Shown one piece after another: positions 32,510 through 57,313 of a stretch of 64,000 nucleotides of DNA. Below the pieces are notes generated by a model that saw only the letters and a list, made by a program, of their open reading frames with translations, was not told the origin of the DNA and made no database searches. Numbering within the stretch: the first letter of the stretch is position 1; the number at the start of each line of letters is the position of its first letter. The DNA comes from Candidatus Woesebacteria bacterium RIFCSPHIGHO2_01_FULL_39_32 (lineage in GTDB: Bacteria; Patescibacteriota; Microgenomatia; UBA8517): NCBI GenBank assembly GCA_001792345.1, contig MGGJ01000001.1, positions 217,710 through 281,709 on the forward strand. The letters run 5' to 3'. Made by a program: the position numbers and the translations under genes.

Positions 32510-32938
32510 ATGCTAATAGGGCAGTATTCAAGTAAATTAACAGAAGGAAGTAGAATTTCCATACCAAAGAAATTTAGAGAAGAATTGGGTGAGGGAATGA
32601 TTATTTCCAAATGGTATGAAGGTTCTCTGGTATTGGTGTCAAAGCTATATTGGGAAGGTTTAGTAAAACGACTAACAGGCGAGACGAGAATTATTACTTC
32701 CCCTGTAAGAGACATTGACAGATTTATTTACGGTTCGGCGTTTGAAGTGGATCTTGATAGTCAGGGAAGGTTTGTCCTACCTGAAAGCTTAAGAGCCTAC
32801 GCGAATATAGTTTCAGAAATAAGCTTCATCGGTTTAGGTGACAGAATTGAAATTTGGGGAGCGGAAAAATGGTTGGAGTTGGAGAGAGGTGCTGAAGAAA
32901 AATCCTCCTTAGCAATTGAAAAAATTGCCAAGAAGTAG
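32510..32938 (+). CDS. mraZ: Transcriptional regulator MraZ
   Basis: MLIGQYSSKLTEGSRISIPKKFRE and a second half-domain ...GRFVLPESLR; first gene of the dcw cluster. Confidence 0.85.
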   Translation: MLIGQYSSKLTEGSRISIPKKFREELGEGMIISKWYEGSLVLVSKLYWEGLVKRLTGETRIITSPVRDIDRFIYGSAFEVDLDSQGRFVLPESLRAYANIVSEISFIGLGDRIEIWGAEKWLELERGAEEKSSLAIEKIAKK

Positions 32939-33046
32939 ATATCAAAATGATTAAAATATACAAAAATTTAATGGATGAACAACTCAAGATGTTCATTGCG
33001 TTTTTCCAAAGTGCTAATATCGAAAACAAGAAATTTCATAAAGTAA

Positions 33047-33988
33047 ATGAAAAAGTTAAAAGAAGCCAAAGAGCTTCATGAACCTGTCCTTTTAAATGAA
33101 GTTCTAGAAGCTTTGCGGGTAAAAGAAATCGCACGTTCAAAAAAAGCTTGCTATATCGACGCAACAGTCGGATTAGGAGGTCATACTCGGGAAATTGTTA
33201 AAGCTGGAGCCAGAGTTCTGGGGATTGAAGCAGACCTCTATTCTCTTGAAATTGCACGAGAGCGTTTGAAAGAAGCCTGCCCTACCCTTGAAAGTGATGA
33301 TCACTTTCAAGGGTCTTTCATACTTACTCACGGCAACTTCATAGAAATAGAAAAAATTGCTAAAGACAACGGGTTTGAGAGTGTAGAGGGTATACTTTTT
33401 GATCTTGGTATCTCGAGTTTCCAACTGGAAGGCAAGAACGCCGGCTTTTCGTTTCAAGATCCTTTGGCGCCTCTTGATATGAGGATAGATCCTGTATCTA
33501 ACAAGGTAAAAGCGTCCGACCTTCTTAAGGTATTAAACGAAACTCAATTGATCGAGCTATTTACGGTGGTTTTGAATACAGCAAAGTCGAGATTAGTAGC
33601 AAAAGCAATAGTAAGAGAAAGAGCTAAAAAAGATATTCAAACAGTTGGGGATTTTTTATATACGATTCGAGGAATTTTTAGACCCAAAAGGGGACAGAAT
33701 GTCGCAACTTTGCCTTTTCTTGCTCTTAGGATTGCTGTCAATAGCGAGCTTGAGAATTTAAAAATAACATTGCCTGCGGCATTTAATCTTTTGAATCTCG
33801 GAGGAAAACTCGTAGTTATCTGTTTTCACTCAGGTGAAGATAGGATAGTAAAGCATTTTTTTATAACTAAAGAAAAAGAAGGAGTGGCGCGTTTGCTGAC
33901 CAAAAAGCCAATTGTCCCGAGTTATGAAGAGATTCAAAGAAATCCCAGAGCAAGAAGCGCAAAGATGAGAATTCTGGAGAAAATATGA
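33047..33988 (+). CDS. rsmH: 16S rRNA (cytosine1402-N4)-methyltransferase RsmH (MraW)
   Basis: HEPVLLNEVLEAL ... IDATVGLGGHTREIV SAM-binding motif, in the conserved position after mraZ. Confidence 0.85.
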   Translation: MKKLKEAKELHEPVLLNEVLEALRVKEIARSKKACYIDATVGLGGHTREIVKAGARVLGIEADLYSLEIARERLKEACPTLESDDHFQGSFILTHGNFIEIEKIAKDNGFESVEGILFDLGISSFQLEGKNAGFSFQDPLAPLDMRIDPVSNKVKASDLLKVLNETQLIELFTVVLNTAKSRLVAKAIVRERAKKDIQTVGDFLYTIRGIFRPKRGQNVATLPFLALRIAVNSELENLKITLPAAFNLLNLGGKLVVICFHSGEDRIVKHFFITKEKEGVARLLTKKPIVPSYEEIQRNPRARSAKMRILEKI

Positions 33989-34305
33989 GAAGAAAACCAC
34001 AAATAAAAATAAGTAATAGTAAAAAACCGTTCAACAAGAAAGTCCTTTTTGGAATTCTTATATCTTTCTGTGCAGCCGCCCAAGTGTTTTTTACAATAGG
34101 GACAAGTGCACTAGGAGCACAAATATCAAGTTTTGAGGAGGAGGTGGAGCTCCTTACAAAAGAAAATCGGGAACTCGAAGATAAACTTATCTCGTCTACC
34201 TCGTTAATTCAACTTAGGCAGAAAGCAGAAGATTTGGGATTTGCGAAAAGCACAACCACTTACTACATAGAAAAAGGCGAATCCTATGCAATGAGTGCGC
34301 CTTGA
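33985..34305 (+). CDS. ftsL: Cell division protein FtsL-like (septum formation initiator)
   Basis: 106 aa with a single TM helix and a short coiled coil, in the canonical position between rsmH and ftsI. Confidence 0.5.
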   Translation: MRRKPQIKISNSKKPFNKKVLFGILISFCAAAQVFFTIGTSALGAQISSFEEEVELLTKENRELEDKLISSTSLIQLRQKAEDLGFAKSTTTYYIEKGESYAMSAP

Positions 34306-34308
34306 TCT

Positions 34309-36021
34309 ATGTTAATCCGCTTGAGACTTATCTCGATTTTCTTTGCTTTCGCCTACCTCGTACTAGTCGTTAGGCTTTTTTATTGGCAAATTTATAAGGG
34401 AAAAGAGCTGTCAGTTGAGGCAAGGGGTCAATATCAAGCACAATGGTCGATTGATGCTCCAAGAGGCGATATTTTATCTTCAGATGGGAGTTGGCTTGCG
34501 GCAAGCGCAGATTCATGGCTAATTTATGCTAGTTTGCCCGATATAAAAGAACCTTCCAAAAAAATTTCAGAACAACTTGCACCCCTTCTGGTAGAAGATC
34601 CTGAAGATAAAGATGCGCTTTTCACAGAAATAGACAGAATTTATTCTTTGCTTACCAGAGATAATGTGGAATGGATACCGATAAAATCGAAAGTTACCCC
34701 TGAAGTTAAGAAACACATTGAAAAGTTGGAAATTTCGGGAATTGGGTACGAGCTTCAAGAAGCGAGAATTTATCCAGAAGCTTCGACTGCTGCACAGCTT
34801 ATGGGTTTTGTAGGTAAGGATGAGGCAGGTGGTGACATAGGGTATTTCGGATTGGAGGGATATTATGATGTAGTTTTATCGGGAAAACCGGGTTTTAAAG
34901 CTCGTGAGAGAGATGCCAGCGGTATTCCAATCTTACTGGGAACTACCAGAGAGATTTCTGCAATAAAAGGAGTGGATCTTCAAACAAATATTGATAAGTT
35001 TATACAACTGACTTTGGATAAAAAACTTAAAGAGGGAATAGAGAGGTATGGGGCTTCAGCTGGGGTGGCGGTAGTTATGAATCCGAAAAATGGTGCCATT
35101 TTAGGTATGGGTGCTTATCCGTCGTACGATCCTTCTGAGTACTGGGAATTTGGAGATGAACTTTTTAATAATCCAGTAATTTCTAATAGTTTTGAACCCG
35201 GTTCAGTGTTTAAAGTTATTGTTATGGCCTCTGCCCTTGACGCTGGTGTCGTTAAACCGGATACAATCTGCAACATTTGTGGAGGTGCAGTAAAAGTTGA
35301 TAAATATACTATTGAAACTTGGAACCAACAGTATTATCCAAATTCAACATTAACAGATGTTATTGTACATTCTGATAATGTAGGCATGGTTTTTACAAGT
35401 AGACGAATAGGAGCAGACATTTTATTTGATTATCTAGAAAACTTTGGGATTGGAAAACCAACTGGAATAGATCTTCAGGGTGAGGCAAATCCTGGCCTAC
35501 GCGATAAAGGAAAATGGAGTAGTGTAGATCTGGCCACAGCAGGCTTTGGCCAGGGAGTCGCTGTCACACCAATTCAACTATTGACTGCTGTTTCTGTAAT
35601 TGCTAATAAGGGCGTGAAGGTTACTCCACAAGTTGTAGATAAACTGGTTGGCGATGGTTGGGAGGAAGACATAAAGCCTGTTATAGGGAAGCGAGTAATC
35701 TCCCAAAGGTCTGCCGAGCAAATTACTACAATGATGGTTGAGGCAGCTAAAAACGGTGAGTCAAAGTGGACGCATGCGAGGGGTTTTAGGGTAGCGGGAA
35801 AAACAGGTACAGCCCAAATTCCTATTGAGGGGCATTATGATGAAGACAAAACGATAGCTTCATTTGTCGGTTTTGCGCCTTATGATAATCCGAAGTTTTT
35901 AATGCTTGTTACTTTACGACAGCCGACAACTTCTCCATGGGCTTCTGAAACAGCGGCCCCGCTGTGGTATTCAATTGCTAAAGATTTTTTTGAGTATTTT
36001 CAAATTCAGCCTGAAAAATAG
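34309..36021 (+). CDS. ftsI: Penicillin-binding protein 2/3 family transpeptidase (FtsI)
   Basis: N-terminal TM anchor; SxxK (GSVFKV), SxN (HSDNVG) and KTG (AGKTGTAQ) motifs. Confidence 0.85.
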   Translation: MLIRLRLISIFFAFAYLVLVVRLFYWQIYKGKELSVEARGQYQAQWSIDAPRGDILSSDGSWLAASADSWLIYASLPDIKEPSKKISEQLAPLLVEDPEDKDALFTEIDRIYSLLTRDNVEWIPIKSKVTPEVKKHIEKLEISGIGYELQEARIYPEASTAAQLMGFVGKDEAGGDIGYFGLEGYYDVVLSGKPGFKARERDASGIPILLGTTREISAIKGVDLQTNIDKFIQLTLDKKLKEGIERYGASAGVAVVMNPKNGAILGMGAYPSYDPSEYWEFGDELFNNPVISNSFEPGSVFKVIVMASALDAGVVKPDTICNICGGAVKVDKYTIETWNQQYYPNSTLTDVIVHSDNVGMVFTSRRIGADILFDYLENFGIGKPTGIDLQGEANPGLRDKGKWSSVDLATAGFGQGVAVTPIQLLTAVSVIANKGVKVTPQVVDKLVGDGWEEDIKPVIGKRVISQRSAEQITTMMVEAAKNGESKWTHARGFRVAGKTGTAQIPIEGHYDEDKTIASFVGFAPYDNPKFLMLVTLRQPTTSPWASETAAPLWYSIAKDFFEYFQIQPEK

Positions 36022-36054
36022 ATTAGCCATGATACAATATAAAGCCAGCCTATT

Positions 36055-37344
36055 ATGAATATTAAGGTTCAGGGAAGACAGGTTTTATCTGGTGAGATTT
36101 TTCCATCGGGGAGCAAGAATTCTGCTGTACACATCTTACCTGCTACGGTTCTGCTTGAAGAAAAGGTAATCCTTAAAAATGTTCCTGATATAAGCGATGT
36201 TGCCAAACTGGTCCATATCCTAAGGAAATTAGGGAGCAAGTTAGATTGGGATAAAGATAAAAAGACAATATCTTTAGATAACTCGAATTTAAGTTTCAAG
36301 AGTTTGAACGAAGAAGATCTTGGAAATATGAAAGCATCGGCCCTCATGTGGGGTGGACTTCTGGGTCGTTTTCACAAAGTTGACTTTTCAGAATTGCCTG
36401 GCGGTTGTACTCTTGGGATTCGACCCTTTGAACCTTTTTACAAGTCATTTAGAACTCTCGGGATTATTGTGAAAGAAATTGACGGCGGCGTTTTAATGGA
36501 TGCAACAAACGCAAATCCAACACACGTTTGGTTAACAGAGATGGCAGTATCGGTTACCAGTACATTGGTGATGGTTGCGGTCACTTTAGAAGGTAAAACG
36601 AAATTAACGGGTGCCGCTTCTGAACCACAGGTGCAGGATTTATGTAATTTTTTGGTAAAAGCAGGGGCAGATATAAAAGGAGTAGGAACAAATGTTCTTG
36701 AAATAAATGGAGGTAAAAAGCTCTCTTCGGTAACACACGAGCTTTTCCATGATCATAATGAAATAGCAACTTTTTTAGCTCTTGGTGCGGTTACGGGTGG
36801 AGAAATACGGGTACATAATTCAGAAGCCGAACTTTTTCCCCAGATAAACTATGAATTTTCAAAATTTAATATAAATATTGAATACGAAGAGGATATTGCA
36901 ATTGTACGTCAGAATCAGGACATCCGATTTACCGGTTCTTTTGAAAAGAAAACCAATGTTGTTAGGGCTCAGCCCTGGCCGGGTCTACCGGTTGATTTAC
37001 TACCCAATTTCATTCCTTTGGCATTAGCGGCCCCAGGTGGTTATATGATATTTCATAACTGGATGTATGAATCAGGGCTTTTTTGGACAAGTGAACTTAC
37101 AAAACTTGGGGCGGAAGTTGTCATGGCAGATCCCCATAGAGTGATCGTGATTGCCGGAAATACGCTAAAAGGCGCAACCCTTGAAGCCCCTTATATTATT
37201 CGCGCGGTTGTTTCCATGGTTATGGCTGCTATGATTGCCGATGGGGAGACAACGATTCTTAATGCTGATGCACTTTATAGGGGTCATCCGAACTTTGCCG
37301 AAAATCTTCGAAAAATTGGAGCTAAGATTGAAGAAGTCGCCTGA
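36055..37344 (+). CDS. murA: UDP-N-acetylglucosamine 1-carboxyvinyltransferase MurA
   Basis: EPSP-synthase fold start MNIKVQGRQVLSGEIFPSGSKNSAVHILPA and active-site Cys loop LPGGCTLGIRP. Confidence 0.8.
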   Translation: MNIKVQGRQVLSGEIFPSGSKNSAVHILPATVLLEEKVILKNVPDISDVAKLVHILRKLGSKLDWDKDKKTISLDNSNLSFKSLNEEDLGNMKASALMWGGLLGRFHKVDFSELPGGCTLGIRPFEPFYKSFRTLGIIVKEIDGGVLMDATNANPTHVWLTEMAVSVTSTLVMVAVTLEGKTKLTGAASEPQVQDLCNFLVKAGADIKGVGTNVLEINGGKKLSSVTHELFHDHNEIATFLALGAVTGGEIRVHNSEAELFPQINYEFSKFNINIEYEEDIAIVRQNQDIRFTGSFEKKTNVVRAQPWPGLPVDLLPNFIPLALAAPGGYMIFHNWMYESGLFWTSELTKLGAEVVMADPHRVIVIAGNTLKGATLEAPYIIRAVVSMVMAAMIADGETTILNADALYRGHPNFAENLRKIGAKIEEVA

Positions 37345-37364
37345 ATGCGCCACAATAAATATTA

Positions 37365-38927
37365 ATGAAGCTTTACAAACTTCTTGAAAACTTGTCAGAT
37401 TATAAAGTTTATGGAAAGGTGCATTTAGTATTAACTTCAATAACCGAAGATTCAAGACAAGCCAAAAAAGGAGGTTTATTTGTTGCAGTAAAAGGATTAA
37501 CAGTTGATGGTCATAAGTTTATCCCCCAAGCAGTAGAGAATGGTGCAAAGGTTGTTGTAGGAGAACTCGATAAAGGAGAAATTAATATTCCAAAAGGTGC
37601 AACTTATGTAAAGGTCAAAAATTCAAGAAAAGCGTTGGGTTTAATGGCCTCGTCTTTTTACGGCAATTCCTCTTCAAAGCTAAAAGTTATCGGGGTAACA
37701 GGAACTGACGGAAAAACAACAACTGCGTTTTTAATTTATCACATTTTACAGACTGCAGGTAAAAAGGTGGGATTGGTTAGTACTGTTTCAGCAAAAATAG
37801 GTAAAAGGGAAGTCGATACAGGATTACATGTTACTAATCCGGACCCCGTAACTTTGCAGTCGTTTCTAGCGGATATGGTTAAGGCAAGATGTGAATTTGC
37901 CGTAGTTGAAGTCACATCTCACGGACTAGATCAAGAAAGAACAGCAGGAGTGAATTTTGATTCCGCAGCTCTAACAAACATTACTCATGAACACCTGGAT
38001 TATCATAAAAGTTTTGAGGAGTATCTCGACACAAAAGCTAAACTTTTTCAGTATGTTAAAAGTTTTGTTGTACTTAATAGAGATGATGAGTCGTTCGAAT
38101 ATATTTCAAAAACAACTCAAGCACGTACTATTTCTTACGCAATAAAAGACAGGTCTTCGGATCTTTACGCTCAAAATATTCGTGAGGAAGTCGGTAAAAC
38201 GGTATATGAATTAGTCCGTGGTGTAAATTCGTTTAAAATTCAAACTGATCTTCCTGGCGAATACAATGTCTCAAACAGTTTAGCAGCAATTGGAATTGCA
38301 TTGGAATACGGCGTTTCTGTAGAGTCGATCAAAAAAGCGCTTTTATCATTCAAAGCGCCCAAAGGACGCCTTGAGAAAATCGAAACATATAAAAATTTTG
38401 AAGTCTACGTTGATTTTGCTCACACCTCTAACTCCTTAGAAAATGTGCTAAGTCTTTTAATAAAACGAATAGCGCAAAAGCAGGAAAAGAGAAAACTAAT
38501 AGCTGTTTTTGGTTGCGCAGGGGAGAGAGATGTTAAAAAAAGACCATTGATGGGCGAGATTTCGACTCGGATAGCCGATACCTCGATTTTTACTGCAGAG
38601 GATCCAAGAAGCGAGGACGTTAATAAAATAATTACGGAAATAGTTAAAGGTACAAGAAAGTCAGAAGTAATGGAAATAAAACCGAGTCACTTTAAAACAT
38701 TAAAAGAAAGCGATAAACATTATTTTTTAAGAATTCCTGAAAGAGGAGAAGCAATTTCTTTTGCAATTCAGAAATTAGCAAAAAAGGGCGATATTGTTGT
38801 AATTTGCGGAAAAGGGCATGAGCAAAGTATGGCCTACGATGGAAAAGAATATGATTGGTCTGACCACGAAGCAGTAAAAATGGCACTTAAAGGAGATATT
38901 AAGAAAATAATCAGAGAAGAATCTTAA
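37365..38927 (+). CDS. murE: UDP-MurNAc-L-Ala-D-Glu:diamino-acid ligase MurE
   Basis: Mur ligase P-loop GVTGTDGKTTT and a C-terminal Mur ligase domain. Confidence 0.8.
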   Translation: MKLYKLLENLSDYKVYGKVHLVLTSITEDSRQAKKGGLFVAVKGLTVDGHKFIPQAVENGAKVVVGELDKGEINIPKGATYVKVKNSRKALGLMASSFYGNSSSKLKVIGVTGTDGKTTTAFLIYHILQTAGKKVGLVSTVSAKIGKREVDTGLHVTNPDPVTLQSFLADMVKARCEFAVVEVTSHGLDQERTAGVNFDSAALTNITHEHLDYHKSFEEYLDTKAKLFQYVKSFVVLNRDDESFEYISKTTQARTISYAIKDRSSDLYAQNIREEVGKTVYELVRGVNSFKIQTDLPGEYNVSNSLAAIGIALEYGVSVESIKKALLSFKAPKGRLEKIETYKNFEVYVDFAHTSNSLENVLSLLIKRIAQKQEKRKLIAVFGCAGERDVKKRPLMGEISTRIADTSIFTAEDPRSEDVNKIITEIVKGTRKSEVMEIKPSHFKTLKESDKHYFLRIPERGEAISFAIQKLAKKGDIVVICGKGHEQSMAYDGKEYDWSDHEAVKMALKGDIKKIIREES

Positions 38928-38949
38928 TACTTACAGGGACAGTCCCTGC

Positions 38950-40380: not shown

Positions 40381-40381
40381 T

Positions 40382-41419: not shown

Positions 41420-41423
41420 AGTA

Positions 41424-42791: not shown

Positions 42792-42798
42792 GATAGAA

Positions 42799-43677: not shown

Positions 43678-43728
43678 AATTTAGCTAGTTTAGTATAAGG
43701 AAATTGGAATAATGCTAAAATTGATTGT

Positions 43729-48288: not shown

Positions 48289-48334
48289 AAAGGCCGCAAT
48301 GCCATTATAATACAGCTACTGTACGAGTAAAATT

Positions 48335-49390
48335 ATGACAATGCCAACTTTACTGCCCTTGGCTTTAGGCCTTCTTTTATTTTCATTTTTCGTAACTAGC
48401 GTTTTTATAGTTCCTTTTATTAACCTTCTTTACAAGTTCAAGTTAACTCGGAAGAAGGAGGCTCCGGCAAAGGGGAAAATTCCGCTTTTTGATATATTGC
48501 ATGATAGAAAGGCGGGGACTCCGGTCGGTGGTGGAATCATAATAATATTGATTGTCTTGGGACTTTTTGCTTTTCTTTTTCCACTTGCTTCACGAATGGG
48601 AGTTTATATCAGAAGCTCGTATAATTTTAAAATAGAACTTTTTGTAATTTTTTTTACGTTTGTATCATTCGGTATTCTTGGATTATCGGACGACTTTATG
48701 AAAATATTTGGCAAGCCTAAACAAGGCAGTTTGGGTTTGTGGTTTGGATTAACACGAAGAAAGAAATTTTTACTGCAATTACTATTAGCAAGTGCAATTG
48801 GTTATATTCTCTATAGCCTATTAGGGATAAACATTGTTTACTTACCACTATTTGATAATATTATTCGCTTAGGGATTTGGTATATTCCTTTTGCAGCCTT
48901 CGTAATTATTTCATTTTCTAACGCATTCAATATAACAGATGGTTTAGATGGGTTGGCTACTGGTTTACTCATAATTTGCCTGACGGCTTTTGGGGCAATA
49001 GCTGCCGGGAATCTTGATACTCCACTTTCTTCTTTCATTGCTTTATGGCTGGGGACTCTTTTAGCATTTGCTTACTTTAACGTATGGCCGGCACGTGTTC
49101 ATTTGGGTGATGTGGGAGCACTTTCTTTTGGAGCGATGCTGGCTCTCATTGGGCTACTTACGGGTAATATTGTAGCACTTATTGTAATTGGAGGTCTTTT
49201 TGTACTTGAGGCGGTGTCTTCTGCTGTACAAATTCTGGGATGGAAGATTCTTAAAAAACCAATCTTACCACTTGCTCCCTTACATAATACATTTTTGGCC
49301 ATTGGTTGGGAGGAGCCTAAAATTGTTATGAGAGCATGGTTTGCAGGGATTATGTTAGCAATTTTCGGACTTTGGCTAGCAACGATTTAA
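48335..49390 (+). CDS. mraY: Phospho-N-acetylmuramoyl-pentapeptide transferase MraY
   Basis: NAFNITDGLDGLA motif; 10 TM helices. Confidence 0.85.
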   Translation: MTMPTLLPLALGLLLFSFFVTSVFIVPFINLLYKFKLTRKKEAPAKGKIPLFDILHDRKAGTPVGGGIIIILIVLGLFAFLFPLASRMGVYIRSSYNFKIELFVIFFTFVSFGILGLSDDFMKIFGKPKQGSLGLWFGLTRRKKFLLQLLLASAIGYILYSLLGINIVYLPLFDNIIRLGIWYIPFAAFVIISFSNAFNITDGLDGLATGLLIICLTAFGAIAAGNLDTPLSSFIALWLGTLLAFAYFNVWPARVHLGDVGALSFGAMLALIGLLTGNIVALIVIGGLFVLEAVSSAVQILGWKILKKPILPLAPLHNTFLAIGWEEPKIVMRAWFAGIMLAIFGLWLATI

Positions 49391-49401
49391 TGAATTGAAG
49401 T

Positions 49402-50493
49402 GTGCGAAAAAACAAATTACAAAGACAAGCCTCAACAATTGATAAGAAGTTTTTACTTTTGAGTCTCTTTCTGACAGTTGTCGGACTCGTTGCATTGGCA
49501 GACGCTTCTGCTCCTTTGGCTCAGAGAAATTTTGGAGATAAATTTTTCTTCCTCAAACAACAAATTGTCTGGGCGGGTGTAGGAATTGTGCTTCTTTTCA
49601 TCGCATCTAAAATCCATTATAGGCTTTGGGAAAAAATCGCAACTATTATTTTTTTCTTGAGCCTTTTTGGCATGTTGATGGTTTTTATTCCCGGAATTGG
49701 CACGAAACTTTTGGGTGCAAGAAGATGGTTAGTTCTTGGTCCAATAACTATTCAACCTTCTGAATTTTTAAAGTTAACCCTTGCAATATATTTGGCCAAA
49801 GTGTCATCCAAAAACAAAAAGCTGGCAGCCTATTTTGTTCCTCTAATCTTAGCTTTATCTCTAATTATGCTCCAGCCAGATCTCGGTACTGCTATCGTAG
49901 TTTCGACAATCGGGATGGCTCAGCTTTTTGTGTCCGGTATTAGTCTAATCTACTTTGCATCAACTCTAGCTTTAGGTGGAGTACTTGGTTTTATTTTAAT
50001 TATTACCTCAGAATACAGACGGGATAGGTTACTGACTTTTTTCGAACAAACCCGTGATCCCCTGGATAAGAGCTATCATATACGCCAAATATTACTGGCA
50101 TTAGGTTCTGGTGGCCTTTTCGGAGTAGGCTTAGGTCAAAGTAGACAAAAGTATCTTTTTTTACCAGAAACCGCGACTGATTCGATCTTTGCGATAATTG
50201 CCGAAGAAATCGGATTTCTGGGAGCAAGCATTTTAATAATTATAATTGTGATTTTCGTCATTCGCGGATTTGCAATTGCGAGGGCATCTCCTGATACGTT
50301 TTCGCGAGTACTTTCTTGCGGAATAATGTCTTGGATTGGTGCACAAACACTTCTCAACATTGGATCTATGGTTGCTATAGTACCTTTGACCGGCATACCT
50401 CTCCCGTTTTTTTCCTACGGAGGATCATCATTGATCGCCCTTCTCATTGGTTGCGGAATACTTTTAAATATTTCAAAATATGGCAAAGAATAA
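49402..50493 (+). CDS. ftsW: SEDS-family peptidoglycan glycosyltransferase FtsW/RodA
   Basis: Polytopic; conserved ...LQPDLGTA... and C-terminal PLPFFSYGGSS motifs of FtsW/RodA. Confidence 0.85.
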   Translation: MRKNKLQRQASTIDKKFLLLSLFLTVVGLVALADASAPLAQRNFGDKFFFLKQQIVWAGVGIVLLFIASKIHYRLWEKIATIIFFLSLFGMLMVFIPGIGTKLLGARRWLVLGPITIQPSEFLKLTLAIYLAKVSSKNKKLAAYFVPLILALSLIMLQPDLGTAIVVSTIGMAQLFVSGISLIYFASTLALGGVLGFILIITSEYRRDRLLTFFEQTRDPLDKSYHIRQILLALGSGGLFGVGLGQSRQKYLFLPETATDSIFAIIAEEIGFLGASILIIIIVIFVIRGFAIARASPDTFSRVLSCGIMSWIGAQTLLNIGSMVAIVPLTGIPLPFFSYGGSSLIALLIGCGILLNISKYGKE

Positions 50494-51589
50494 TGATACA
50501 AAAAAAGTTGTCTTGACTGGAGGACATGCGGGTTCAACGGCATATGTTGTAATCGAGGAAATAAGAAAACAAAATAAAAATTGGGATTTATATTGGATCG
50601 GATCTAAAAGTTCTATTGAAGGAGCGAAAGTTCCTCCAATTTCTTCGATATATTTTCCGAAATACGGAATTAAGACATATGGAATTATAGCAGGACGCCT
50701 GCAAAGAAAGTTTACACTTCACACTGTCCCTTCGCTCTTAAAAATCCCAATAGGATTTATTCATGCAATTTATCTTCTGGCTAAAATTAAACCGGATGTA
50801 GTTTTGTCATTTGGTGGTTTTAGTGCGTTTCCGGTCGTTGTTGTTGCTGGCATCTTCGGAATTCCTGTAATAATTCATGAACAAACCTCGGTTGTTGGGA
50901 GAGCAAATAAATATTCGGCCACTTTTTCAAAAAGAATTGCAATTTCAAGAGATACCAGTGCCAGATTTTTTCCGAAAGAAAAGACGCTGCTTACGGGTAA
51001 CCCTACTCCTTACGATATTAAATCAAACCTAAAAAATCTACCGAAGATTCCTGCTATTTTTATAACCGGTGGGCAATCTGGATCGGTTGTGATTAACGAT
51101 GCAGTTGAAAGTGCTCTTCCTAAATTATTGAAAGATTTCCGAGTAGTTCATCTAACTGGGATTAGGCAGGAGGATAAATTTAGACATATTTGGGAAAAAT
51201 TAGATTCAAAATTAAAAGAAAGATATAAAGTTTACGGACAGGTTGATTTTAAAAAATACAGCGAGATTTTTAATTCCTCAACTTTATTGATTTCCAGGGC
51301 TGGAGCTAATACTGTATCAAAGATTCTTGTTTCAAAAAAACCCTCTATTCTAATCCCTCTTCCAATTTCATATCTTAACGAACAGGAAAAAAATGCGATT
51401 TACGCTAAAAACTTTGGCCTTGCAAGAGTACTTTTGCAAGATGATCTAACTCCCGAAAGTTTATTAGACGAAGTTTTTTATTTAATCGAAAATTGGAATG
51501 AAATTCTGGACAATGTGTCTAAAAAAGAAACTCCCGACGTTCATGCTGCCGAAAAACTTGTAAGTCTAATTGAGGAGGAGCTTAAATGA
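50480..51589 (+). CDS. murG: UDP-GlcNAc:lipid I N-acetylglucosaminyltransferase MurG
   Basis: VVLTGGHAGSTAYV N-terminal GT28 motif, ...HEQTS..., and C-terminal ISRAGANTVSKIL. Confidence 0.8.
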   Translation: MAKNNDTKKVVLTGGHAGSTAYVVIEEIRKQNKNWDLYWIGSKSSIEGAKVPPISSIYFPKYGIKTYGIIAGRLQRKFTLHTVPSLLKIPIGFIHAIYLLAKIKPDVVLSFGGFSAFPVVVVAGIFGIPVIIHEQTSVVGRANKYSATFSKRIAISRDTSARFFPKEKTLLTGNPTPYDIKSNLKNLPKIPAIFITGGQSGSVVINDAVESALPKLLKDFRVVHLTGIRQEDKFRHIWEKLDSKLKERYKVYGQVDFKKYSEIFNSSTLLISRAGANTVSKILVSKKPSILIPLPISYLNEQEKNAIYAKNFGLARVLLQDDLTPESLLDEVFYLIENWNEILDNVSKKETPDVHAAEKLVSLIEEELK

Positions 51590-52287
51590 AACTTTTGGCC
51601 AAATTAAAAATTCCATTTACAATAATTGTTGCCGGCCTTCTGATTTCAGTAATTTCTGGATTAATAAAAATAAGAGAAATTTCCTGTGAAAATCAAAATG
51701 GAGAATGTAGTCGTGGAGTTACGCAAAAATTTACTGAGGCAAAGGGCCTGCCATATTCTTCTGCAAAAAATAAGTTAACAGAAATGCTGCAGAGTAATGT
51801 TGCTGTCAAAAAATATACTATTCATTTCCAAATTCCGGCGAAACTTGAAGTTAATATTATTGAAAGTAAACCAAAATATGCGCTTAAAAATTCTACTTCG
51901 AATATTTTTTCATTGGTGGGGGAAGACGGTAGAGTAATTTCTCAGGCCGAATCGTCAGATCTCCCGACATTATTTGTTGAAAAAGATTTACACCCAACTA
52001 CCCAAACAATTGATATGGAAACTCTTTTTGCTTCTGAAATAGTATTTTCGATATCAAATATTCATAAATTTAAAAGCGCACGTCTTGAGGGAGGTAAATT
52101 GATCGTTGAAGTAGTAGAAGGTCCTACTGTAATATTTCCACTTGAGGGAGATAGAGAAATACTCTTAGGGTCATACGTACTGGTTACGGATGAGTTGAAG
52201 AAGGAAGGAATTGGTTCTACAATAAAAAATCCTAGGATTATTGATTTACGGTTCAAAAATCCGATTTTAAAGTATGTCCAAAAATAA
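51586..52287 (+). CDS. ftsQ: Cell division protein FtsQ/DivIB-like (POTRA domain)
   Basis: Single TM helix and a POTRA-like VAVKKYTIHFQIPAKLEVNIIESKPKYAL; canonical position before ftsA. Confidence 0.55.
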   Translation: MKLLAKLKIPFTIIVAGLLISVISGLIKIREISCENQNGECSRGVTQKFTEAKGLPYSSAKNKLTEMLQSNVAVKKYTIHFQIPAKLEVNIIESKPKYALKNSTSNIFSLVGEDGRVISQAESSDLPTLFVEKDLHPTTQTIDMETLFASEIVFSISNIHKFKSARLEGGKLIVEVVEGPTVIFPLEGDREILLGSYVLVTDELKKEGIGSTIKNPRIIDLRFKNPILKYVQK

Positions 52288-53548
52288 AATCATTGCAGGA
52301 ATAGAACTGGGCTCTTCTAAAGTTGCCACAATTATCGCTCAAATTAATGTTGATAGTGTTAGTTTTGAAAGGTCTGTAAATTTAATTGGTGTTTCCTCAA
52401 TTGAATCAAGGGGGGTAAAAAAGGGTCAAATCGTAGATATAGATGAAGCGGTCGAATCAATGATAGCAGGTGTGGAGGCAGCAGAGAGGATGGCGGGGTA
52501 TAACCTGGATAATGCTTACATTTCTTTGGGTGGAGGGCATGTTTCTTCTCAAAATTCCCACGGAGTTGTTGCAGTTTCGGATCCCGACGGAGAAATTTCG
52601 GAAGAAGACGTCGCCCGAGTGATAGAGGCGGCTAGTGCAATTTCTCTTCCGTCATCAAGGGAGCTAATCCATGTTTTACCTCGAGAGTTTGTTGTCGATG
52701 GTGAAGTCGGAGTAAAAGATGCAGTAGGAATGAGTGGAGTTCGCTTGGAAGTGCAAACGCATCTGATTACGGCATCAGGCGCTGCCGTAAAAAATCTAAG
52801 AAAAGCAGTTAATGAGGTTGGAATAACTGTAAATGAGCTAGTCTTTTCCGGTTTGGCTTCAAGCGAGGCGGTTCTAACCAAGACGGAAAAAGAACTTGGA
52901 TGCGTATTAATTGATATTGGGGGCGGAACGACCTCTATTGCCACTTTTGTTGACGGGGCATTAAGTTTTTCGGCTGTCCTTCCCATTGGAGCAAAAAATG
53001 TAACGAACGATTTAGCAATAGGCTTAAGGGTTTCTTTGGAATCTGCCGAAAAAATAAAACTGGAACTCTCCAAAGAAGAGAAAAAGACAAAAAAGATAAA
53101 AGATGCTTCTGGTGATGAATTTGACTTGCAATCAATTGGAATAACCGAAGCTAGAAAGGTTTCTAAAAAAACTCTTACGGATGGTATTATTCGACCGCGG
53201 CTTAACGAAATTTTTACAATGGTGAAACTTGCTCTTGATAGGGAGGGACTTTCGGCCTTAATTCCGGCTGGAGCGATCTTAACCGGGGGGGGTGCTGAGA
53301 CCGTAGGTAGCCTGGAAGCGGCAAAAAGGATGATGTCGCTTCCGGTAAGAATAGGTAAACCTAAGGGCGTCGGAGGATTAATAGATGATGTAATTGATCC
53401 TGTCTTTGCAACTCCGGTTGGATTGGTGTTATACGCAGCTAAACAATCAAATGACGAGTCATTGACAAGCATAGGACGAAAGTTTAAACTGCCCTCGAAA
53501 GGTGTTGTAGGAAAACTTTTAGAAACGCTTAAGGATCTTCTGCCCTAA
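52274..53548 (+). CDS. ftsA: Cell division protein FtsA
   Basis: Actin-fold phosphate-1 IIAGIELGSSKVATIIA and CVLIDIGGGTTSIA motifs. Confidence 0.85.
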   Translation: MSKNKIIAGIELGSSKVATIIAQINVDSVSFERSVNLIGVSSIESRGVKKGQIVDIDEAVESMIAGVEAAERMAGYNLDNAYISLGGGHVSSQNSHGVVAVSDPDGEISEEDVARVIEAASAISLPSSRELIHVLPREFVVDGEVGVKDAVGMSGVRLEVQTHLITASGAAVKNLRKAVNEVGITVNELVFSGLASSEAVLTKTEKELGCVLIDIGGGTTSIATFVDGALSFSAVLPIGAKNVTNDLAIGLRVSLESAEKIKLELSKEEKKTKKIKDASGDEFDLQSIGITEARKVSKKTLTDGIIRPRLNEIFTMVKLALDREGLSALIPAGAILTGGGAETVGSLEAAKRMMSLPVRIGKPKGVGGLIDDVIDPVFATPVGLVLYAAKQSNDESLTSIGRKFKLPSKGVVGKLLETLKDLLP

Positions 53549-53599
53549 TGATAGGATACTAAGATATTAGGATAATATATTGAAATTCTAAATAAATAG

Positions 53600-53628
53600 T
53601 TGTATTTTAGACTTCAATACACTAGAAT
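53600..53628 (+). promoter_or_regulatory. Candidate ftsZ promoter: TTGTAT (53600-53605), 17-nt spacer, TAGAAT (53623-53628)
   Basis: Near-consensus hexamers with ideal spacing 15 bp upstream of the AAAAGGT Shine-Dalgarno and ATG 53644. Confidence 0.45.
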
Positions 53629-53643
53629 CTGTCCACAAAAGGT

Positions 53644-54792
53644 ATGGCTTTAGTTAAACCGGATTCAGCTAGAGTTGCTAAAATTAAGGTAATCGGAATT
53701 GGTGGCGGTGGAAGTAACGCCGTCGCTTCCATGATTGAAGGTAATGACGTAACGGGCGTTGAATTTATTTCCGTAAATACAGACGCACAGGTTCTTCTTG
53801 CCAATAAATCTCCCACTAAACTTCAGATTGGAGAAAAACTTACTAAAGGATTGGGCTCCGGTGGAGATCCGGAAGTCGGAGTACAAGCTGCTGAGGAGTC
53901 AAAAGATAGAATTAAAGAGCTTCTAATTGATTCTGATATGGTTTTTATTACATCTGGTATGGGTGGAGGAACAGGTACAGGTGCATCTCCTGTTATTGCA
54001 AATATTGCCAAAGAGGTTGGCGCACTTACTGTAGCAATTGTTACTAAACCCTTCCATTTTGAAGGGACAAGACGCTCTGTCGTAGCAGAGGAGGGGATAG
54101 AAAAACTACGTGAACAGGTAGATACCTTGATTGTTATTCCAAACCAGCGCTTGATGGATGTAATTGACAGGAAAATGACCCTCTTGGAAGCATTCAAAGT
54201 AGCGGATTCGGTTCTTGGTCAGGCTGTATCGGGAATTGCCGATATCATCACTACCCCGGGACTCATTAACGTTGACTTTGCAGATGTGAAGACTATTATG
54301 AGTGACTCAGGAACAGCCCTACTGGGAATCGGAACCGGAGTAGGGGAAAATAGAGCTCAGATGGCAGCCCGCGCGTCGATTTCTTCACCACTTCTTGATT
54401 TGTCTATAGAAGGTGCAACAGGAGTGCTTTTCAATATTACAGGAGGAAATGATCTTACGATGTTTGAGGTAGATGAGGCTGCCCGAATTATATCTTCTTC
54501 TGCCGATGCCGATGCAAATATTATTTTCGGTGCAGTTATTAAGGAAGACCTGGCTGACCAGATTAGAATAACCGTAGTTGCCACAGGTTTTGATGAAACA
54601 AGAGCAAGAATAGCACAATTTACTCAGCCAAAAGTGACCCCGACTATTCAAGGGGTTGTAAGTGAAGCTCCGAAAGAGGAAGAGGAAGCGGAGGAAAAGG
54701 AAGACGAAGAAGAACCACCCATGGGTGAAGGCGAAGACGACGTCTTCGGTGAAAAATTTGAAATACCGGCATTCCTTCGAAAGATTACCTAA
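53644..54792 (+). CDS. ftsZ: Cell division GTPase FtsZ
   Basis: Tubulin signature GGGTGTG (SGMGGGTGTGASPVIA), T7 loop NVDFADV, and an acidic C-terminal tail ending in the conserved FtsA-binding peptide IPAFLRK. Confidence 0.9.
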   Translation: MALVKPDSARVAKIKVIGIGGGGSNAVASMIEGNDVTGVEFISVNTDAQVLLANKSPTKLQIGEKLTKGLGSGGDPEVGVQAAEESKDRIKELLIDSDMVFITSGMGGGTGTGASPVIANIAKEVGALTVAIVTKPFHFEGTRRSVVAEEGIEKLREQVDTLIVIPNQRLMDVIDRKMTLLEAFKVADSVLGQAVSGIADIITTPGLINVDFADVKTIMSDSGTALLGIGTGVGENRAQMAARASISSPLLDLSIEGATGVLFNITGGNDLTMFEVDEAARIISSSADADANIIFGAVIKEDLADQIRITVVATGFDETRARIAQFTQPKVTPTIQGVVSEAPKEEEEAEEKEDEEEPPMGEGEDDVFGEKFEIPAFLRKIT

Positions 54793-56902: not shown

Positions 56903-56960
56903 AATTACGGCCTTGATCTTCAAAGTTTTAGCGACGGAGGGAGACAAATTTGAAGAAAAA
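56902..56960 (+). repeat. 55-bp direct repeat copy 1 (GAATTAYGGCCTTG...TTAGCGAYGG...GACAAATTTGAAGAA), left boundary of the repeat-punctuated island
   Basis: About 47 of 57 positions are identical to 59900-59955; its 3' end is the island motif. Confidence 0.7.
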
Positions 56961-57278: not shown

Positions 57279-57298
57279 AAACAAATTTGAAGAGAAAT
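57279..57298 (+). repeat. Island motif copy (degenerate: ACAAACAAATTTGAAGAGAAAT)
   Basis: Matches the CAAATTTGAAGA core. Confidence 0.4.
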
Positions 57299-57313
57299 AC
57301 TTTATTTATTTTA

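What the first reader, a model, noticed from the sequence alone, without database searches (positions are those of the whole stretch)
32510..54792. Rearranged and expanded dcw cluster: murA/murC/murB moved in, plus FemAB, DegT aminotransferase, class-IV aminotransferase and hydrolase insertions
The canonical order mraZ-rsmH-ftsL-ftsI-murE-murF-mraY-murD-ftsW-murG-murC-(murB)-ddl-ftsQ-ftsA-ftsZ is replaced here. murA, murE, murC, murB and murD form one block after ftsI. murF is separated from murE. ddl is absent from the cluster. Four non-canonical genes are inserted: a convergent class-IV aminotransferase that could supply D-Glu or D-Ala, an alpha/beta hydrolase, a DegT-family sugar aminotransferase between murF and the Fem gene, and a FemAB-family transferase directly before mraY. 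FemAB and DegT genes adjacent to mraY suggest a modified lipid II, with an interpeptide branch and/or an aminated or otherwise modified MurNAc/GlcNAc moiety. That would be a notable cell-wall chemistry for this lineage.
Basis: partly seen in the sequence, partly recalled or inferred. Interest (0 to 1): 0.55.

Follow-up and report, generated by a model that had tools for sequence, protein, structure and literature searches.

The report
Conserved cell-wall cassette with membrane-bound MurF
This is the cell-wall and division operon of a tiny Woesebacteria-like (CPR) bacterium, and its "extra" genes form a four-gene cassette conserved across the whole phylum, including a MurF enzyme that is built into the membrane instead of being soluble, which suggests these bacteria finish their cell-wall building block differently from textbook bacteria.

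Summary
There is no ddl, alr or murI anywhere in the 64 kb.

The inserted genes are conserved in relatives. Hydrolase-murF-DegT-Fem is a cassette, usually with 4-bp gene overlaps, present in at least 575 species-level Patescibacteria genomes. It is intact in 54 of 57 evaluable loci, even where the rest of the cluster is arranged differently.

The cassette's MurF has no UDP-binding N-domain. In its place is a conserved five-helix membrane domain with invariant cytoplasmic motifs and no structural relative in the PDB.

The hydrolase, DegT and Fem proteins all keep their catalytic residues. MurE carries E-D-x-R instead of DNPR. Aminoacyl-tRNA synthetase genes (GlyRS here; LysRS and SerRS in Parcubacteria-type loci) sit nearby.

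A branched or otherwise modified precursor is plausible but unproven, and the substrates of DegT and the hydrolase are unknown. I found no published description. Verdict: a real, phylum-wide variant of a known pathway.

The parts
32510..36021 (+). mraZ, rsmH, ftsL-like (106 aa, one TM helix), ftsI: the canonical head of the dcw cluster
   Evidence: Pfam MraZ, Methyltransf_5, PBP_dimer plus Transpeptidase. TM segment 18-43 in the 106-aa ORF.
36055..42791 (+). murA-murE-murC-murB-murD block. All are soluble and keep canonical N-domains. MurE carries EDPR in place of DNPR.
   Evidence: NCBIfam murA NF006873 (347 bits), murE NF001126 (494), murC TIGR01082 (378), murB NF000755 (347), murD TIGR01087 (354). 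Pfam N-domains PF01225 and PF21799. Motif alignment.
42799..43677 (-). Class-IV (fold-type IV) aminotransferase, convergent with murD. Candidate D-Glu supplier; specificity unresolved. Likely true start at 43653.
   Evidence: PF01063, 156 bits. Closest PDB: archaeal BCAT 5mqz at 180 bits, DAATs at 110-140. Motif alignment. MurI (PF01177) sits next to murD in 8 other loci.
43729..44445 (+). Cassette gene 1: alpha/beta-fold serine hydrolase (238 aa, Ser78-Asp188-His216). It overlaps the murF* start by 22 nt.
   Evidence: Pfam Abhydrolase_1/6 and Hydrolase_4. Triad and HGW motif conserved in at least 93% of 72 homologs. Median gap to murF* is -4 bp. Also paired with a TM-MurF in the non-CPR contig L086.
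44424..44933 (+). Membrane domain of MurF* (residues 1-170): five TM helices, N-terminus outside. Invariant cytoplasmic motifs W-x-Q-x-K-E-Y-R-x-D-R (27-37) and R-K-P-x-x-T-x-R (97-104). It replaces the UDP-binding N-domain of canonical MurF.
   Evidence: Hydropathy. Invariant columns. AF2 pLDDT 96.3. No PDB fold match, best E 1.9. Found only at the N-terminus of ~520-545 aa MurF-like proteins among 1.84e9 representatives.
44934..46034 (+). Catalytic part of MurF*: central ATP-binding domain (P-loop GITGSYGKTT around residues 179-188) and C-terminal domain of a MurF-type ligase.
   Evidence: PF08245 at 180-379 and PF02875 at 403-480. TIGR01143, 224 bits. phmmer to E. coli MurF 1gg4 aligns query 155-490 with chain 80-405.
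46031..47278 (+). Cassette gene 3: DegT/DnrJ/EryC1-fold PLP enzyme (415 aa) with Schiff-base Lys185 and Asp156. Family-specific features: Arg61, Arg183, loss of the canonical Gln after E-D, and a ~50-residue helical insert. It is the most conserved cassette member.
   Evidence: PF01041, 211 bits. Alignment A1. AF2 pLDDT 92.5. Foldseek TM 0.76/0.86 to perosamine synthase, WbpE and ArnB at 22-24% identity. 43-49% identity across the phylum where the other cassette proteins are 30-38%.
47266..48288 (+). Cassette gene 4: FemX-type (FemABX family, no coiled-coil insert) aminoacyl-tRNA-dependent transferase, 340 aa. F301-K302 is conserved.
   Evidence: PF02388, 147 bits. Best PDB hit S. aureus FemX 6snr (87 bits), then W. 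viridescens FemX (47 bits). 3444 homologs, with the top 120 nearly all ~340 aa. Conserved residues.
48335..54792 (+). mraY, ftsW, murG, ftsQ-like (233 aa, one TM helix), ftsA, ftsZ: the canonical tail of the dcw cluster
   Evidence: Pfam. TM segment 1-32 in the 233-aa ORF. The positional equivalent in other loci has POTRA_1 and FtsQ_DivIB_C.
30332..31615 (+). Glycyl-tRNA synthetase, two genes upstream of mraZ. Possible donor-supply link to the Fem transferase (weak, positional only).
   Evidence: NF003211, 570 bits. Parallel: LysRS and SerRS sit directly upstream of the cassette in 34 and 38 Parcubacteria-type loci.

Best explanation
The region is the standard peptidoglycan and division super-operon of a Woesebacteria-like Patescibacterium. 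Its non-canonical core is a phylum-wide, translationally coupled cassette: hydrolase, MurF*, DegT*, Fem. This cassette carries out and tailors the last cytoplasmic-face steps of precursor synthesis at the membrane.

Shown:
- The four genes are kept together across the phylum while their surroundings vary.
- All four proteins keep their catalytic residues.
- MurF* has MurF-type ATP-binding and C-terminal domains, but a five-helix membrane domain stands where the UDP-binding domain should be. Invariant Arg/Lys-rich loops of that domain face the cytoplasm.

Inferred:
1. MurF* adds D-Ala-D-Ala to the MurNAc-tripeptide while anchored beside MraY. The conserved loops replace the lost N-domain in gripping the pyrophosphate-sugar end of the substrate. 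That substrate may be UDP-linked or already lipid-linked.
2. Fem transfers Gly, Ser or Ala from an aminoacyl-tRNA onto a free amine of the precursor, most simply the side-chain amine of the DAP-like residue 3. This gives a branched precursor.
3. DegT* is an aminotransferase that feeds Fem by creating or supplying that amine. This follows the common 'aminotransferase then GNAT N-acyltransferase' logic. Its carbonyl substrate is not identified.
4. The hydrolase works with MurF*, because it also accompanies a membrane MurF outside the CPR. Its substrate is unknown.
5. The convergent class-IV aminotransferase is a Woesebacteria-specific replacement for glutamate racemase next to murD.
For: Synteny:
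- 54 of 57 evaluable loci carry the full cassette.
- Median intergenic distance is -4 bp.
- The context varies: Microgenomates-type murA-[cassette]-mraY versus Parcubacteria-type ftsI-lysS-serS-[cassette]-ftsQ, or murG-lysS-serS-[cassette].
- At least 575 species genomes encode DegT*.

MurF*:
- Hydropathy.
- The alignment to 1gg4 starts at chain residue 80.
- Invariant Q29, E32, Y33, R34, D36, P99, R104.
- AF2 pLDDT 96.3.
- The domain is found only on MurF-like proteins.
- By direct count on the sequence there are 7 and 8 Lys/Arg in the two conserved loops and 0-1 in the opposite turns, which places the loops in the cytoplasm.
- An intact ddl lies directly after a hydrolase plus TM-MurF pair in L086, which supports a D-Ala-D-Ala-adding role.

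Fem:
- Closest to S. aureus FemX, the lipid II:glycine glycyltransferase.
- The FK catalytic pair is conserved.

MurE:
- It keeps the Arg that binds the distal carboxylate of DAP (PMC3829189).

DegT*:
- Lys185 and Asp156 are intact, and the whole protein has the sugar-aminotransferase fold.
- FemABX enzymes can acylate an enzymatically made sugar amine (PMC12945691).

Class-IV aminotransferase:
- MurI is adjacent to murD in 8 loci, whereas the class-IV enzyme occupies that slot only in the Woesebacteria clade.
Against: - No biochemical or compositional data exist for any Patescibacteria peptidoglycan.
- No dehydrogenase or dehydratase that could make a keto substrate for DegT* occurs in or beside the cassette in any locus.
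- The acceptor and donor of Fem are not determined. The aaRS synteny may be inherited gene order within related lineages.
- I could not check whether a second, canonical murF, or ddl and alr, exist elsewhere in these genomes. The only ddl seen next to a CPR cassette (L009) is truncated.
- The membrane domain could be a simple tether.
- The class-IV enzyme resembles L-specific BCATs more than DAATs.
Confidence: 0.6

Rival explanations
1. Sugar route, closest to the first reader's idea. DegT* aminates a keto derivative of the UDP-sugar or lipid-linked MurNAc/GlcNAc, and Fem then aminoacylates that sugar amine. The glycan, not the stem peptide, would carry the extra amino acid.
For: DegT* has the complete fold of NDP-sugar aminotransferases. 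An aminotransferase followed by a GNAT-fold N-acyltransferase is the usual pairing in nucleotide-sugar pathways (my own knowledge: PseC/PseH, PglE/PglD). A FemABX-type enzyme, Orf11, aminoacylates an amino sugar with Gly-tRNA (PMC12945691).
Against: No oxidoreductase or dehydratase partner appears in any of 84 loci. The C-terminal half of DegT*, which in known members helps hold the nucleotide, is too divergent for sequence search to match. The family has invariant Arg61 and Arg183 near the cofactor motifs, which points to an acidic substrate. Fem is closest to stem-peptide FemX enzymes.
Confidence: 0.15
2. In-situ diamino-acid formation. MurE ligates a keto-acid analogue of DAP, the open form of tetrahydrodipicolinate (2-amino-6-oxopimelate). 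DegT* holds the UDP-MurNAc handle and transaminates the 6-oxo group to make the DAP residue on the precursor. This bypasses DapD/C/E (or DapL). Fem then acylates the new amine.
For: All MurE proteins from cassette genomes have E-D-x-R instead of DNPR. The carboxylate-binding Arg is kept, but the first two positions are changed, including the Asn that H-bonds the mDAP carboxylate (PMC3829189). DegT* has family-specific invariant arginines that would suit an alpha-keto-acid carboxylate. A DegT-family enzyme, Fic25, acts on a lysine-like chain rather than a sugar. The model explains why an NDP-sugar-type aminotransferase is locked to murF and Fem with no oxidoreductase.
Against: This is entirely inferential. 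MurE passes the DAP-ligase equivalog threshold, so ordinary DAP is the default. The presence or absence of dapA/B/D/C/E/F/L in these genomes was not testable. The gene order places DegT* after murF, not after murE.
Confidence: 0.1
3. D-amino-acid supply. DegT*, alone or with Fem, replaces alanine racemase and/or Ddl and provides the D-Ala-containing unit that MurF* adds. It would work as a stereo-inverting aminotransferase or as a PLP epimerase.
For: There is no ddl or alr in the 64-kb window or next to any CPR cassette. The single ddl found (L009) is truncated. In the non-CPR contig L086 an intact ddl occupies the position directly after the TM-MurF, where DegT*-Fem sit in the CPR. DegT* is the most conserved cassette member, as expected for a core metabolic enzyme.
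Against: No DegT-family member is known to act as a racemase or an amino-acid D-transaminase (my own knowledge; all PDB relatives act on sugars, cyclitols or one lysine-like chain). Fem enzymes use L-aminoacyl-tRNA or glycyl-tRNA. The literature reports Ddl/Van-type ligases in some CPR genomes and 'essentially complete' pathways (PMC8651080, PMC7143001). Absence from 21-kb windows says nothing about the rest of the genome.
Confidence: 0.08
4. Hitchhiking. The hydrolase, DegT* and Fem are unrelated housekeeping or surface-glycan genes that simply sit in a long, compact operon, and the membrane domain is only a tether.
For: CPR genomes are compact, with many overlapping genes. A large glycan-synthesis cluster lies upstream in the window. 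Other non-PG genes such as greA, lysS and serS are also found in these clusters.
Against: The four genes stay together in 54 of 57 loci while everything around them is reshuffled. They usually overlap by 4 bp. The membrane domain has invariant polar residues, which a passive anchor would not need. The hydrolase also accompanies a TM-MurF in an unrelated diderm bacterium.
Confidence: 0.07

Closest known systems
Canonical dcw cluster and cytoplasmic Mur pathway (E. coli / B. subtilis type)
   Same: It has the same enzyme set (MraZ, RsmH, FtsL, FtsI, MurA-G, MraY, FtsW, FtsQ/A/Z) and the same overall polarity. MurC, MurD and MurE have the normal three-domain build.
   Different: The gene order differs: murA, murC, murB and murD are grouped after ftsI, and murF is detached from murE. 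There is no ddl. Four extra genes are present. MurF is an integral membrane protein without the UDP-binding domain, whereas MurC-F are described as cytoplasmic enzymes whose N-domain binds the UDP-MurNAc-peptide (PMC10214165).
FemX / MurM (FemABX family) branched-precursor synthesis
   Same: Two-GNAT-domain fold without a coiled coil, ~340 aa, conserved catalytic Phe-Lys. Best structural-sequence match is S. aureus FemX, followed by W. viridescens FemX. The gene sits between murF and mraY, where a FemX acting on UDP-MurNAc-pentapeptide would operate.
   Different: Far below the FemX equivalog cutoff (69.6 versus 500 bits). The residue-3 ligase is DAP-like rather than Lys-type. The gene is always coupled to a DegT-type PLP enzyme, which no characterised Fem system has. 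Donor and acceptor are unknown.
MurT/GatD lipid II amidation complex
   Same: It contains a Mur-ligase-family enzyme that lacks the nucleotide-binding N-domain, is encoded next to and probably works with a small hydrolase-type partner, and acts at the membrane stage.
   Different: MurT is soluble with a DUF1727 C-domain, and its partner is a glutaminase. MurF* has MurF-type central and C-terminal domains, its own five-helix membrane domain, and an alpha/beta-hydrolase partner with a Ser-Asp-His triad.
NDP-sugar aminotransferases (PseC, ArnB, WbpE, perosamine synthase) paired with N-acyltransferases
   Same: DegT* shares their whole fold (TM 0.76/0.86), their Lys and Asp cofactor residues, and the gene-pair logic of an aminotransferase followed by a GNAT-fold transferase.
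   Different: Only 22-24% identity. The phosphate-binding Thr/Ser is replaced by invariant Arg61, the canonical Gln is lost, and there is a ~50-residue insert. No keto-sugar-forming partner is present. The transferase partner uses aminoacyl-tRNA instead of acetyl-CoA.

Membership tests
dcw (division and cell wall) cluster | Co-oriented block containing mraZ-rsmH-ftsL-ftsI at the head and ftsQ-ftsA-ftsZ at the tail, with mur genes, mraY and ftsW between | tested here: met
   Pfam/NCBIfam on all 20 ORFs. FtsL and FtsQ are assigned by position and a single TM helix only.
dcw (division and cell wall) cluster | Canonical internal order murE-murF-mraY-murD-ftsW-murG-murC-(murB)-ddl | tested here: not met
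   The order is murA-murE-murC-murB-murD-(AT4)-abH-murF-DegT-Fem-mraY-ftsW-murG, with no ddl.
MurF (UDP-MurNAc-tripeptide:D-Ala-D-Ala ligase) | Central ATP-binding Mur ligase domain with P-loop, and a C-terminal domain most similar to MurF | tested here: met
   PF08245 (131 bits) and PF02875. The best NCBIfam and PDB hits are all MurF.
MurF (UDP-MurNAc-tripeptide:D-Ala-D-Ala ligase) | [quoted passage not shown] | tested here: not met
   Residues 1-156 are five TM helices. The alignment to E. coli MurF begins at chain residue 80. TIGR01143 scores below its cutoff (224 versus 288.6).
MurF (UDP-MurNAc-tripeptide:D-Ala-D-Ala ligase) | Adds D-Ala-D-Ala to the tripeptide precursor | not testable with these tools
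   Support is indirect only. It is the sole MurF-like gene in the cluster, and an intact ddl is adjacent to the homologous pair in L086.
FemABX aminoacyl-tRNA transferases | FemAB Pfam domain across two GNAT-like halves, with the catalytic Phe-Lys motif near the C-terminus | tested here: met
   PF02388 at 147 bits, above its cutoff of 24. F301-K302 conserved in at least 93% of 70 homologs.
FemABX aminoacyl-tRNA transferases | Equivalog-level identity to a characterised FemX (UDP-MurNAc-pentapeptide-lysine N6-alanyltransferase) | tested here: not met
   NF047883 scores 69.6 bits against a cutoff of 500.
FemABX aminoacyl-tRNA transferases | Uses aminoacyl-tRNA to acylate the residue-3 side-chain amine of a peptidoglycan precursor | not testable with these tools
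   The only hints are positional: the gene lies between murF and mraY, and GlyRS, SerRS and LysRS genes are nearby.
DegT/DnrJ/EryC1/StrS sugar aminotransferases | Fold-type I PLP fold of this family, with the Schiff-base Lys and the pyridine-N Asp | tested here: met
   PF01041 at 211 bits. K185 and D156 invariant. Foldseek probability 1.00 and TM 0.76/0.86 to 3bn1, 3nu7 and 4oca.
DegT/DnrJ/EryC1/StrS sugar aminotransferases | Membership of a characterised subfamily (PseC, LegC, ArnB, WecE, DesI and others) | tested here: not met
   All NCBIfam hits cover only residues ~35-210 and score 89-155 bits against cutoffs of 375-650.
DegT/DnrJ/EryC1/StrS sugar aminotransferases | Works on a keto-sugar made by an adjacent dehydratase or dehydrogenase | tested here: not met
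   No such gene lies in or next to the cassette in the window or in 84 related loci.
D-amino-acid transaminase (class IV) | Class-IV fold plus the carboxylate trap of Bacillus DAAT (Tyr31, Arg98, His100) | tested here: inconclusive
   The fold criterion is met (PF01063, 156 bits). The trap residues align to Phe, Glu and Ala. Non-canonical DAATs score 130-140 bits.

The most novel reading that the evidence does not exclude
Patescibacteria complete the peptidoglycan precursor by a route not seen elsewhere. An integral-membrane MurF, whose novel five-helix domain recognises a lipid-linked rather than UDP-linked MurNAc-tripeptide, adds the terminal dipeptide after transfer to the lipid carrier. 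A dedicated PLP aminotransferase then creates an amine on the precursor, and a FemX-type enzyme acylates it from aminoacyl-tRNA. The result would be a phylum-specific peptidoglycan chemotype and a new order of steps in lipid II synthesis.
Probability: 0.2. Interest if true: 0.85.

Novelty: new variant of a known kind. Interest (0 to 1): 0.62.

Why it matters
Patescibacteria (CPR) make up a large share of bacterial diversity, and their cell-wall chemistry has never been measured. Reviews say only that peptidoglycan genes are 'frequently observed' (PMC13293708).

This analysis shows that the pathway in these organisms is not textbook. One of its essential, supposedly cytoplasmic ligases is an integral membrane protein carrying a conserved domain of unknown fold. 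That ligase is locked to three further enzymes of unknown substrate in hundreds of species.

This gives concrete, testable targets:
- for working out the CPR wall structure;
- for understanding how genome-reduced episymbionts obtain D-amino acids and diamino acids;
- for lineage-specific inhibitors or probes.

It also matters for annotation. Pipelines label these genes 'MurF', 'DegT aminotransferase' and 'FemAB', which hides the fact that they form one unit.

Tried and rejected
1. Word-index homology search with the MurF* membrane domain returned only a self-match. The exhaustive HMMER search was needed instead.
3. The promoter and terminator scan gave fewer hits than shuffled sequence and says nothing about operon structure.
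4. The window has no tRNA genes and no Rfam families, so there is no dedicated cell-wall tRNA or T-box near glyS.
5. The apparent DegT pseudogene in L001/L002 was rejected as an assembly artefact: Ns and a frameshift fall at the same site.
6. P0304, a 1865-aa hit to the KEYR motif, is a eukaryotic FN3-repeat protein and a spurious match.
7. The metagenome scan with the truncated L009 Ddl found only two loci. One was a Firmicute-like ddl-alr pair, which was irrelevant. The other was the informative L086.
8. Motif-based calling of D versus L specificity for the class-IV aminotransferase was inconclusive.
9. Literature searches for the cassette, a membrane MurF, or ddl/alr in Patescibacteria found nothing specific.
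10. Whether ddl, alr, dap genes or a second murF exist elsewhere in these genomes could not be tested, because only 21-kb slices were available.

Full report

Yes.

The four Mur ligases separate cleanly: murC TIGR01082 at 378 bits, murD TIGR01087 at 354, murE NF001126 at 494, and murF TIGR01143 at 224. There is no ddl, alr or murI anywhere in the 64 kb.

The closest named relatives are Candidatus Woesebacteria. GC content is about 36%.

**2. Are the insertions conserved?**

The Fem protein has 3444 detectable homologs, and the top 120 are nearly all ~340 aa. The DegT protein likewise has a deep family of ~410-420-aa proteins.

Gene neighbourhoods of Fem homologs at 75%, 58% and 53% identity show the same block: hydrolase, long murF, DegT, Fem, mraY, ftsW, murG, ftsQ, ftsA. 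The 80 best were all Patescibacteria by title: Woese-, Blackburn-, Gottesman-, Chisholm-, Yanofsky-, Wildermuth-, Nealson-, Staskawicz-, Portnoy- and Peregrinibacteria.

I labelled the ORFs of all loci by BLASTP against the window's proteins. The four genes hydrolase-murF-DegT-Fem travel as a unit, intact in 54 of 57 evaluable loci, while the context changes:
- In Microgenomates-type loci the cassette lies between murA (or glmU/glmS) and mraY.
- In Parcubacteria-type loci it follows ftsI-lysS-serS or murG-lysS-serS and precedes ftsQ, with mraY elsewhere.

Median intergenic distances inside the cassette are -4, -4 and -1.5 bp, which is the ATGA-type overlap of translationally coupled genes. DegT is the best conserved member: 43-49% identity at distances where the other three proteins are at 30-38%. 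An apparent split of DegT in one Woesebacteria lineage is an assembly artefact.

The 'rearranged and expanded' cluster is therefore the norm for the phylum, not a peculiarity of this genome.

**3.

The cassette MurF is 536 aa. Pfam finds only the central and C-terminal Mur ligase domains, from residue 180 onward. The alignment to E. coli MurF (1gg4) starts at chain residue 80, which is the end of the UDP-binding N-domain.

The first ~156 residues are hydrophobic helices. The other Mur ligases, the hydrolase, DegT and Fem have none.

An exhaustive HMMER search of 1.84 billion cluster representatives found this domain only at the N-terminus of ~516-555-aa MurF-like proteins or their fragments. 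An alignment of 26 members has invariant Q29, E32, Y33, R34, D36, P99 and R104. AlphaFold2 models the domain with pLDDT 96.3 as five long helices plus two short ones in the first loop. Foldseek finds no relative in the PDB; the best hit has E = 1.9 and TM < 0.3.

I counted charges on the sequence. The two conserved loops (residues 31-52 and 86-107) hold 7 and 8 Lys/Arg, and the opposite turns hold 1 and 0. The topology is therefore N-terminus out, five TM helices, with both conserved motifs and the ligase domains in the cytoplasm.

Canonical MurC-F are cytoplasmic, and their N-domain binds the UDP-MurNAc-peptide (PMC10214165). I found no paper describing a membrane MurF.

Invariant polar residues argue against a passive anchor. 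The simplest inference is that the Arg/Lys-rich loops take over binding of the pyrophosphate-sugar end of the substrate. Whether that substrate is UDP-linked or lipid-linked is open. MurT, another Mur-family ligase lacking the N-domain, acts on lipid II (my own knowledge), which makes the lipid-linked option worth testing.

**4. The hydrolase belongs with MurF.**

It has an intact Ser78-Asp188-His216 triad and an HGW oxyanion motif, conserved in at least 93% of 72 homologs. It always precedes and usually overlaps murF*.

A metagenome scan seeded with a Ddl fragment turned up contig L086. Its TonB-dependent receptor indicates a diderm, non-CPR bacterium. The contig carries GNAT, hydrolase, TM-MurF (31% identity, with the same kind of membrane domain and loop motifs), and an intact ddl. 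The pair of hydrolase and membrane MurF is therefore older or wider than the CPR. Its adjacency to ddl supports a true D-Ala-D-Ala-adding function. DegT and Fem are the CPR-specific additions. The hydrolase's substrate is unknown; its nearest families are small esterases and lipases.

**5. Fem.**

It is a FemX-type protein without a coiled coil. It is closest to S. aureus FemX, the lipid II:glycine glycyltransferase (87 bits), and then to W. viridescens FemX (47 bits). It has a conserved F301-K302 pair that matches the catalytic Phe-Lys of FemX (my own knowledge). It falls far below the FemX equivalog cutoff, so it is a family member of unknown specificity.

Positional hints to the donor amino acid:
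- Glycyl-tRNA synthetase lies two genes upstream of mraZ in the window.
- LysRS and SerRS lie directly upstream of the cassette in 34 and 38 Parcubacteria-type loci.

These loci are related, so the synteny may reflect only a few evolutionary events. The window contains no tRNA gene and no T-box.

**6. MurE.**

It passes the DAP-ligase equivalog model. Every MurE from a cassette genome has E-D-[P/S/Y/F]-R where mDAP enzymes have DNPR. The Arg that binds the distal carboxylate of mDAP is kept, whereas Lys-type S. aureus MurE has Ala there (PMC3829189). The first two positions differ. Residue 3 is therefore a DAP-like dicarboxylic amino acid, possibly not meso-DAP itself. A Fem branch on a DAP-type residue is known in LL-DAP-Gly walls (my own knowledge).

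**7. DegT\*.**

It is a complete sugar-aminotransferase-type fold: AF2 pLDDT 92.5 and TM 0.76/0.86 to GDP-perosamine synthase, WbpE and ArnB at 22-24% identity. Lys185 and Asp156 are intact.

It has its own signature:
- Invariant Arg61 where the family has the phosphate-binding Thr/Ser.
- Invariant Arg183-Asp184 before the lysine.
- Loss of the canonical Gln after Glu-Asp.
- A conserved ~50-residue helical insert.

No keto-sugar-forming enzyme accompanies it in any locus. Its constant pairing with a GNAT-fold transferase mirrors the 'make an amine, then N-acylate it' logic of sugar pathways. FemABX enzymes can acylate such an amine (Orf11; PMC12945691). One family member, Fic25, works on a lysine-like chain.

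I therefore infer that DegT* provides the amine Fem uses. I rank three possibilities for where that amine sits: on the stem peptide (including in-situ formation of the DAP residue from its keto-acid precursor), on the sugar, or in a free D-amino acid. None could be tested here.

**8. The class-IV aminotransferase.**

It occurs only in the Woesebacteria clade (the window, L001, L002 and L005), always convergent with murD. In 8 other loci a glutamate racemase sits beside murD. That is good positional support for a D-Glu-supplying role.

The sequence is less clear. The closest solved structures are archaeal branched-chain aminotransferases (180 bits), then non-canonical DAATs (130-140) and Bacillus DAAT (110). 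It has neither the DAAT carboxylate trap nor the BCAT Gly38/Arg40 pair. I give a D-amino-acid role about even odds.

**9. ddl.**

ddl is absent from the window and from the neighbourhood of every CPR cassette, with one exception. L009 has a ddl directly upstream of the hydrolase, but it lacks the C-terminal third and has no continuation in any frame.

The literature says only that CPR pathways are 'essentially complete' (PMC7143001) and that Ddl/Van-type ligases occur in some genomes (PMC8651080). The source of D-Ala-D-Ala therefore remains open and needs a whole-genome census.

**10. Verdict.**

The interpretation, a modified lipid II, is reasonable for the Fem branch and unsupported for sugar amination.

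The actual finding is broader than the one reported: a phylum-wide, tightly coupled cassette built around a membrane-embedded MurF with a domain of unknown fold, plus an uncharacterised DegT-type enzyme and a FemX-type transferase.

It is a new variant of a known pathway rather than a new kind of system. I found no description of it in the searchable literature. Mechanistic confidence is moderate for the general model (0.6) and low for any specific chemistry.

Noticed in passing
window 72-25756: A ~25-kb surface-glycan cluster fills the first 40% of the window. It contains seven GT4/GT1-type and three GT2 glycosyltransferases, three PMT_2 (dolichyl-phosphate-mannose-type) membrane glycosyltransferases, a Wzy_C polymerase/ligase, a hexapeptide acyltransferase, a sugar nucleotidyltransferase, a Bac_transf priming transferase and a DUF4012 protein. 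It has no sugar aminotransferase or dehydratase.
   Followed up: partly
window 17146-20752: Three tandem genes (307, 298 and 485 aa) each end in a PEP-utilising-enzyme mobile domain (PF00391), and nothing else in them is recognisable. A row of three is unusual.
   Followed up: no
window 30332-31615: Glycyl-tRNA synthetase (NF003211, 570 bits) lies two genes upstream of mraZ. It is followed by a 247-aa single-TM ORF of unknown family at 31612-32355. There is no T-box or other Rfam match in front of it.
   Followed up: partly
L011-L081 (Parcubacteria-type loci), e.g. L022:5048-6511 and L032:6410-7675: Lysyl-tRNA synthetase and seryl-tRNA synthetase sit directly upstream of the cassette, between ftsI or murG and the hydrolase, in 34 and 38 loci. 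This may be a donor-supply link to Fem or simply inherited synteny.
   Followed up: partly
L016, L030, L052, L061, L064, L078, L082 (Gottesmanbacteria-type loci): These clusters pack further peptidoglycan-related genes around the cassette: YfiH/PgeF-type Cu-oxidase_4 between murE and murC, glmU and glmS before the hydrolase, DgkA-type kinase (PF01219) between Fem and mraY, and sometimes CvpA+CAP or a metallo-beta-lactamase-fold gene between DegT and Fem. A YvcK-like UDP-GlcNAc-binding protein is present in L065 and L084.
   Followed up: partly
L086:6740-10735: A non-CPR (diderm, TonB-receptor-bearing) metagenome contig carries GNAT, an alpha/beta hydrolase, a membrane-domain MurF and an intact ddl outside any dcw context. 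The membrane MurF plus hydrolase pair is therefore not confined to the CPR.
   Followed up: partly
L009:6613-7392: The only ddl next to a CPR cassette is truncated. It has the N-terminal and central domains only, with no continuation in any frame. This could be gene decay or an assembly problem.
   Followed up: partly
L058 and L069: Two loci have a second Fem paralog inserted between the hydrolase and murF*, in addition to the usual Fem after DegT. This hints at a two-residue branch in those lineages.
   Followed up: no
window 55034-56218 (-) and 58103-58786 (+): Just downstream of ftsZ there is a second, larger alpha/beta hydrolase (394 aa, with a PGAP1-like region) on the opposite strand, and an Amidase_3 N-acetylmuramoyl-L-alanine amidase. 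A 1.2-kb stretch at 56903-58102 has no ORF of at least 80 aa and no Rfam or tRNA hit.
   Followed up: no
window 58794-62247 (-): A NucS-C-domain protein (348 aa) and a PD-(D/E)XK nuclease-superfamily protein (228 aa) flank three small ORFs with no family match. GC skew turns negative from about 54 kb onward, matching the switch to minus-strand genes.
   Followed up: no
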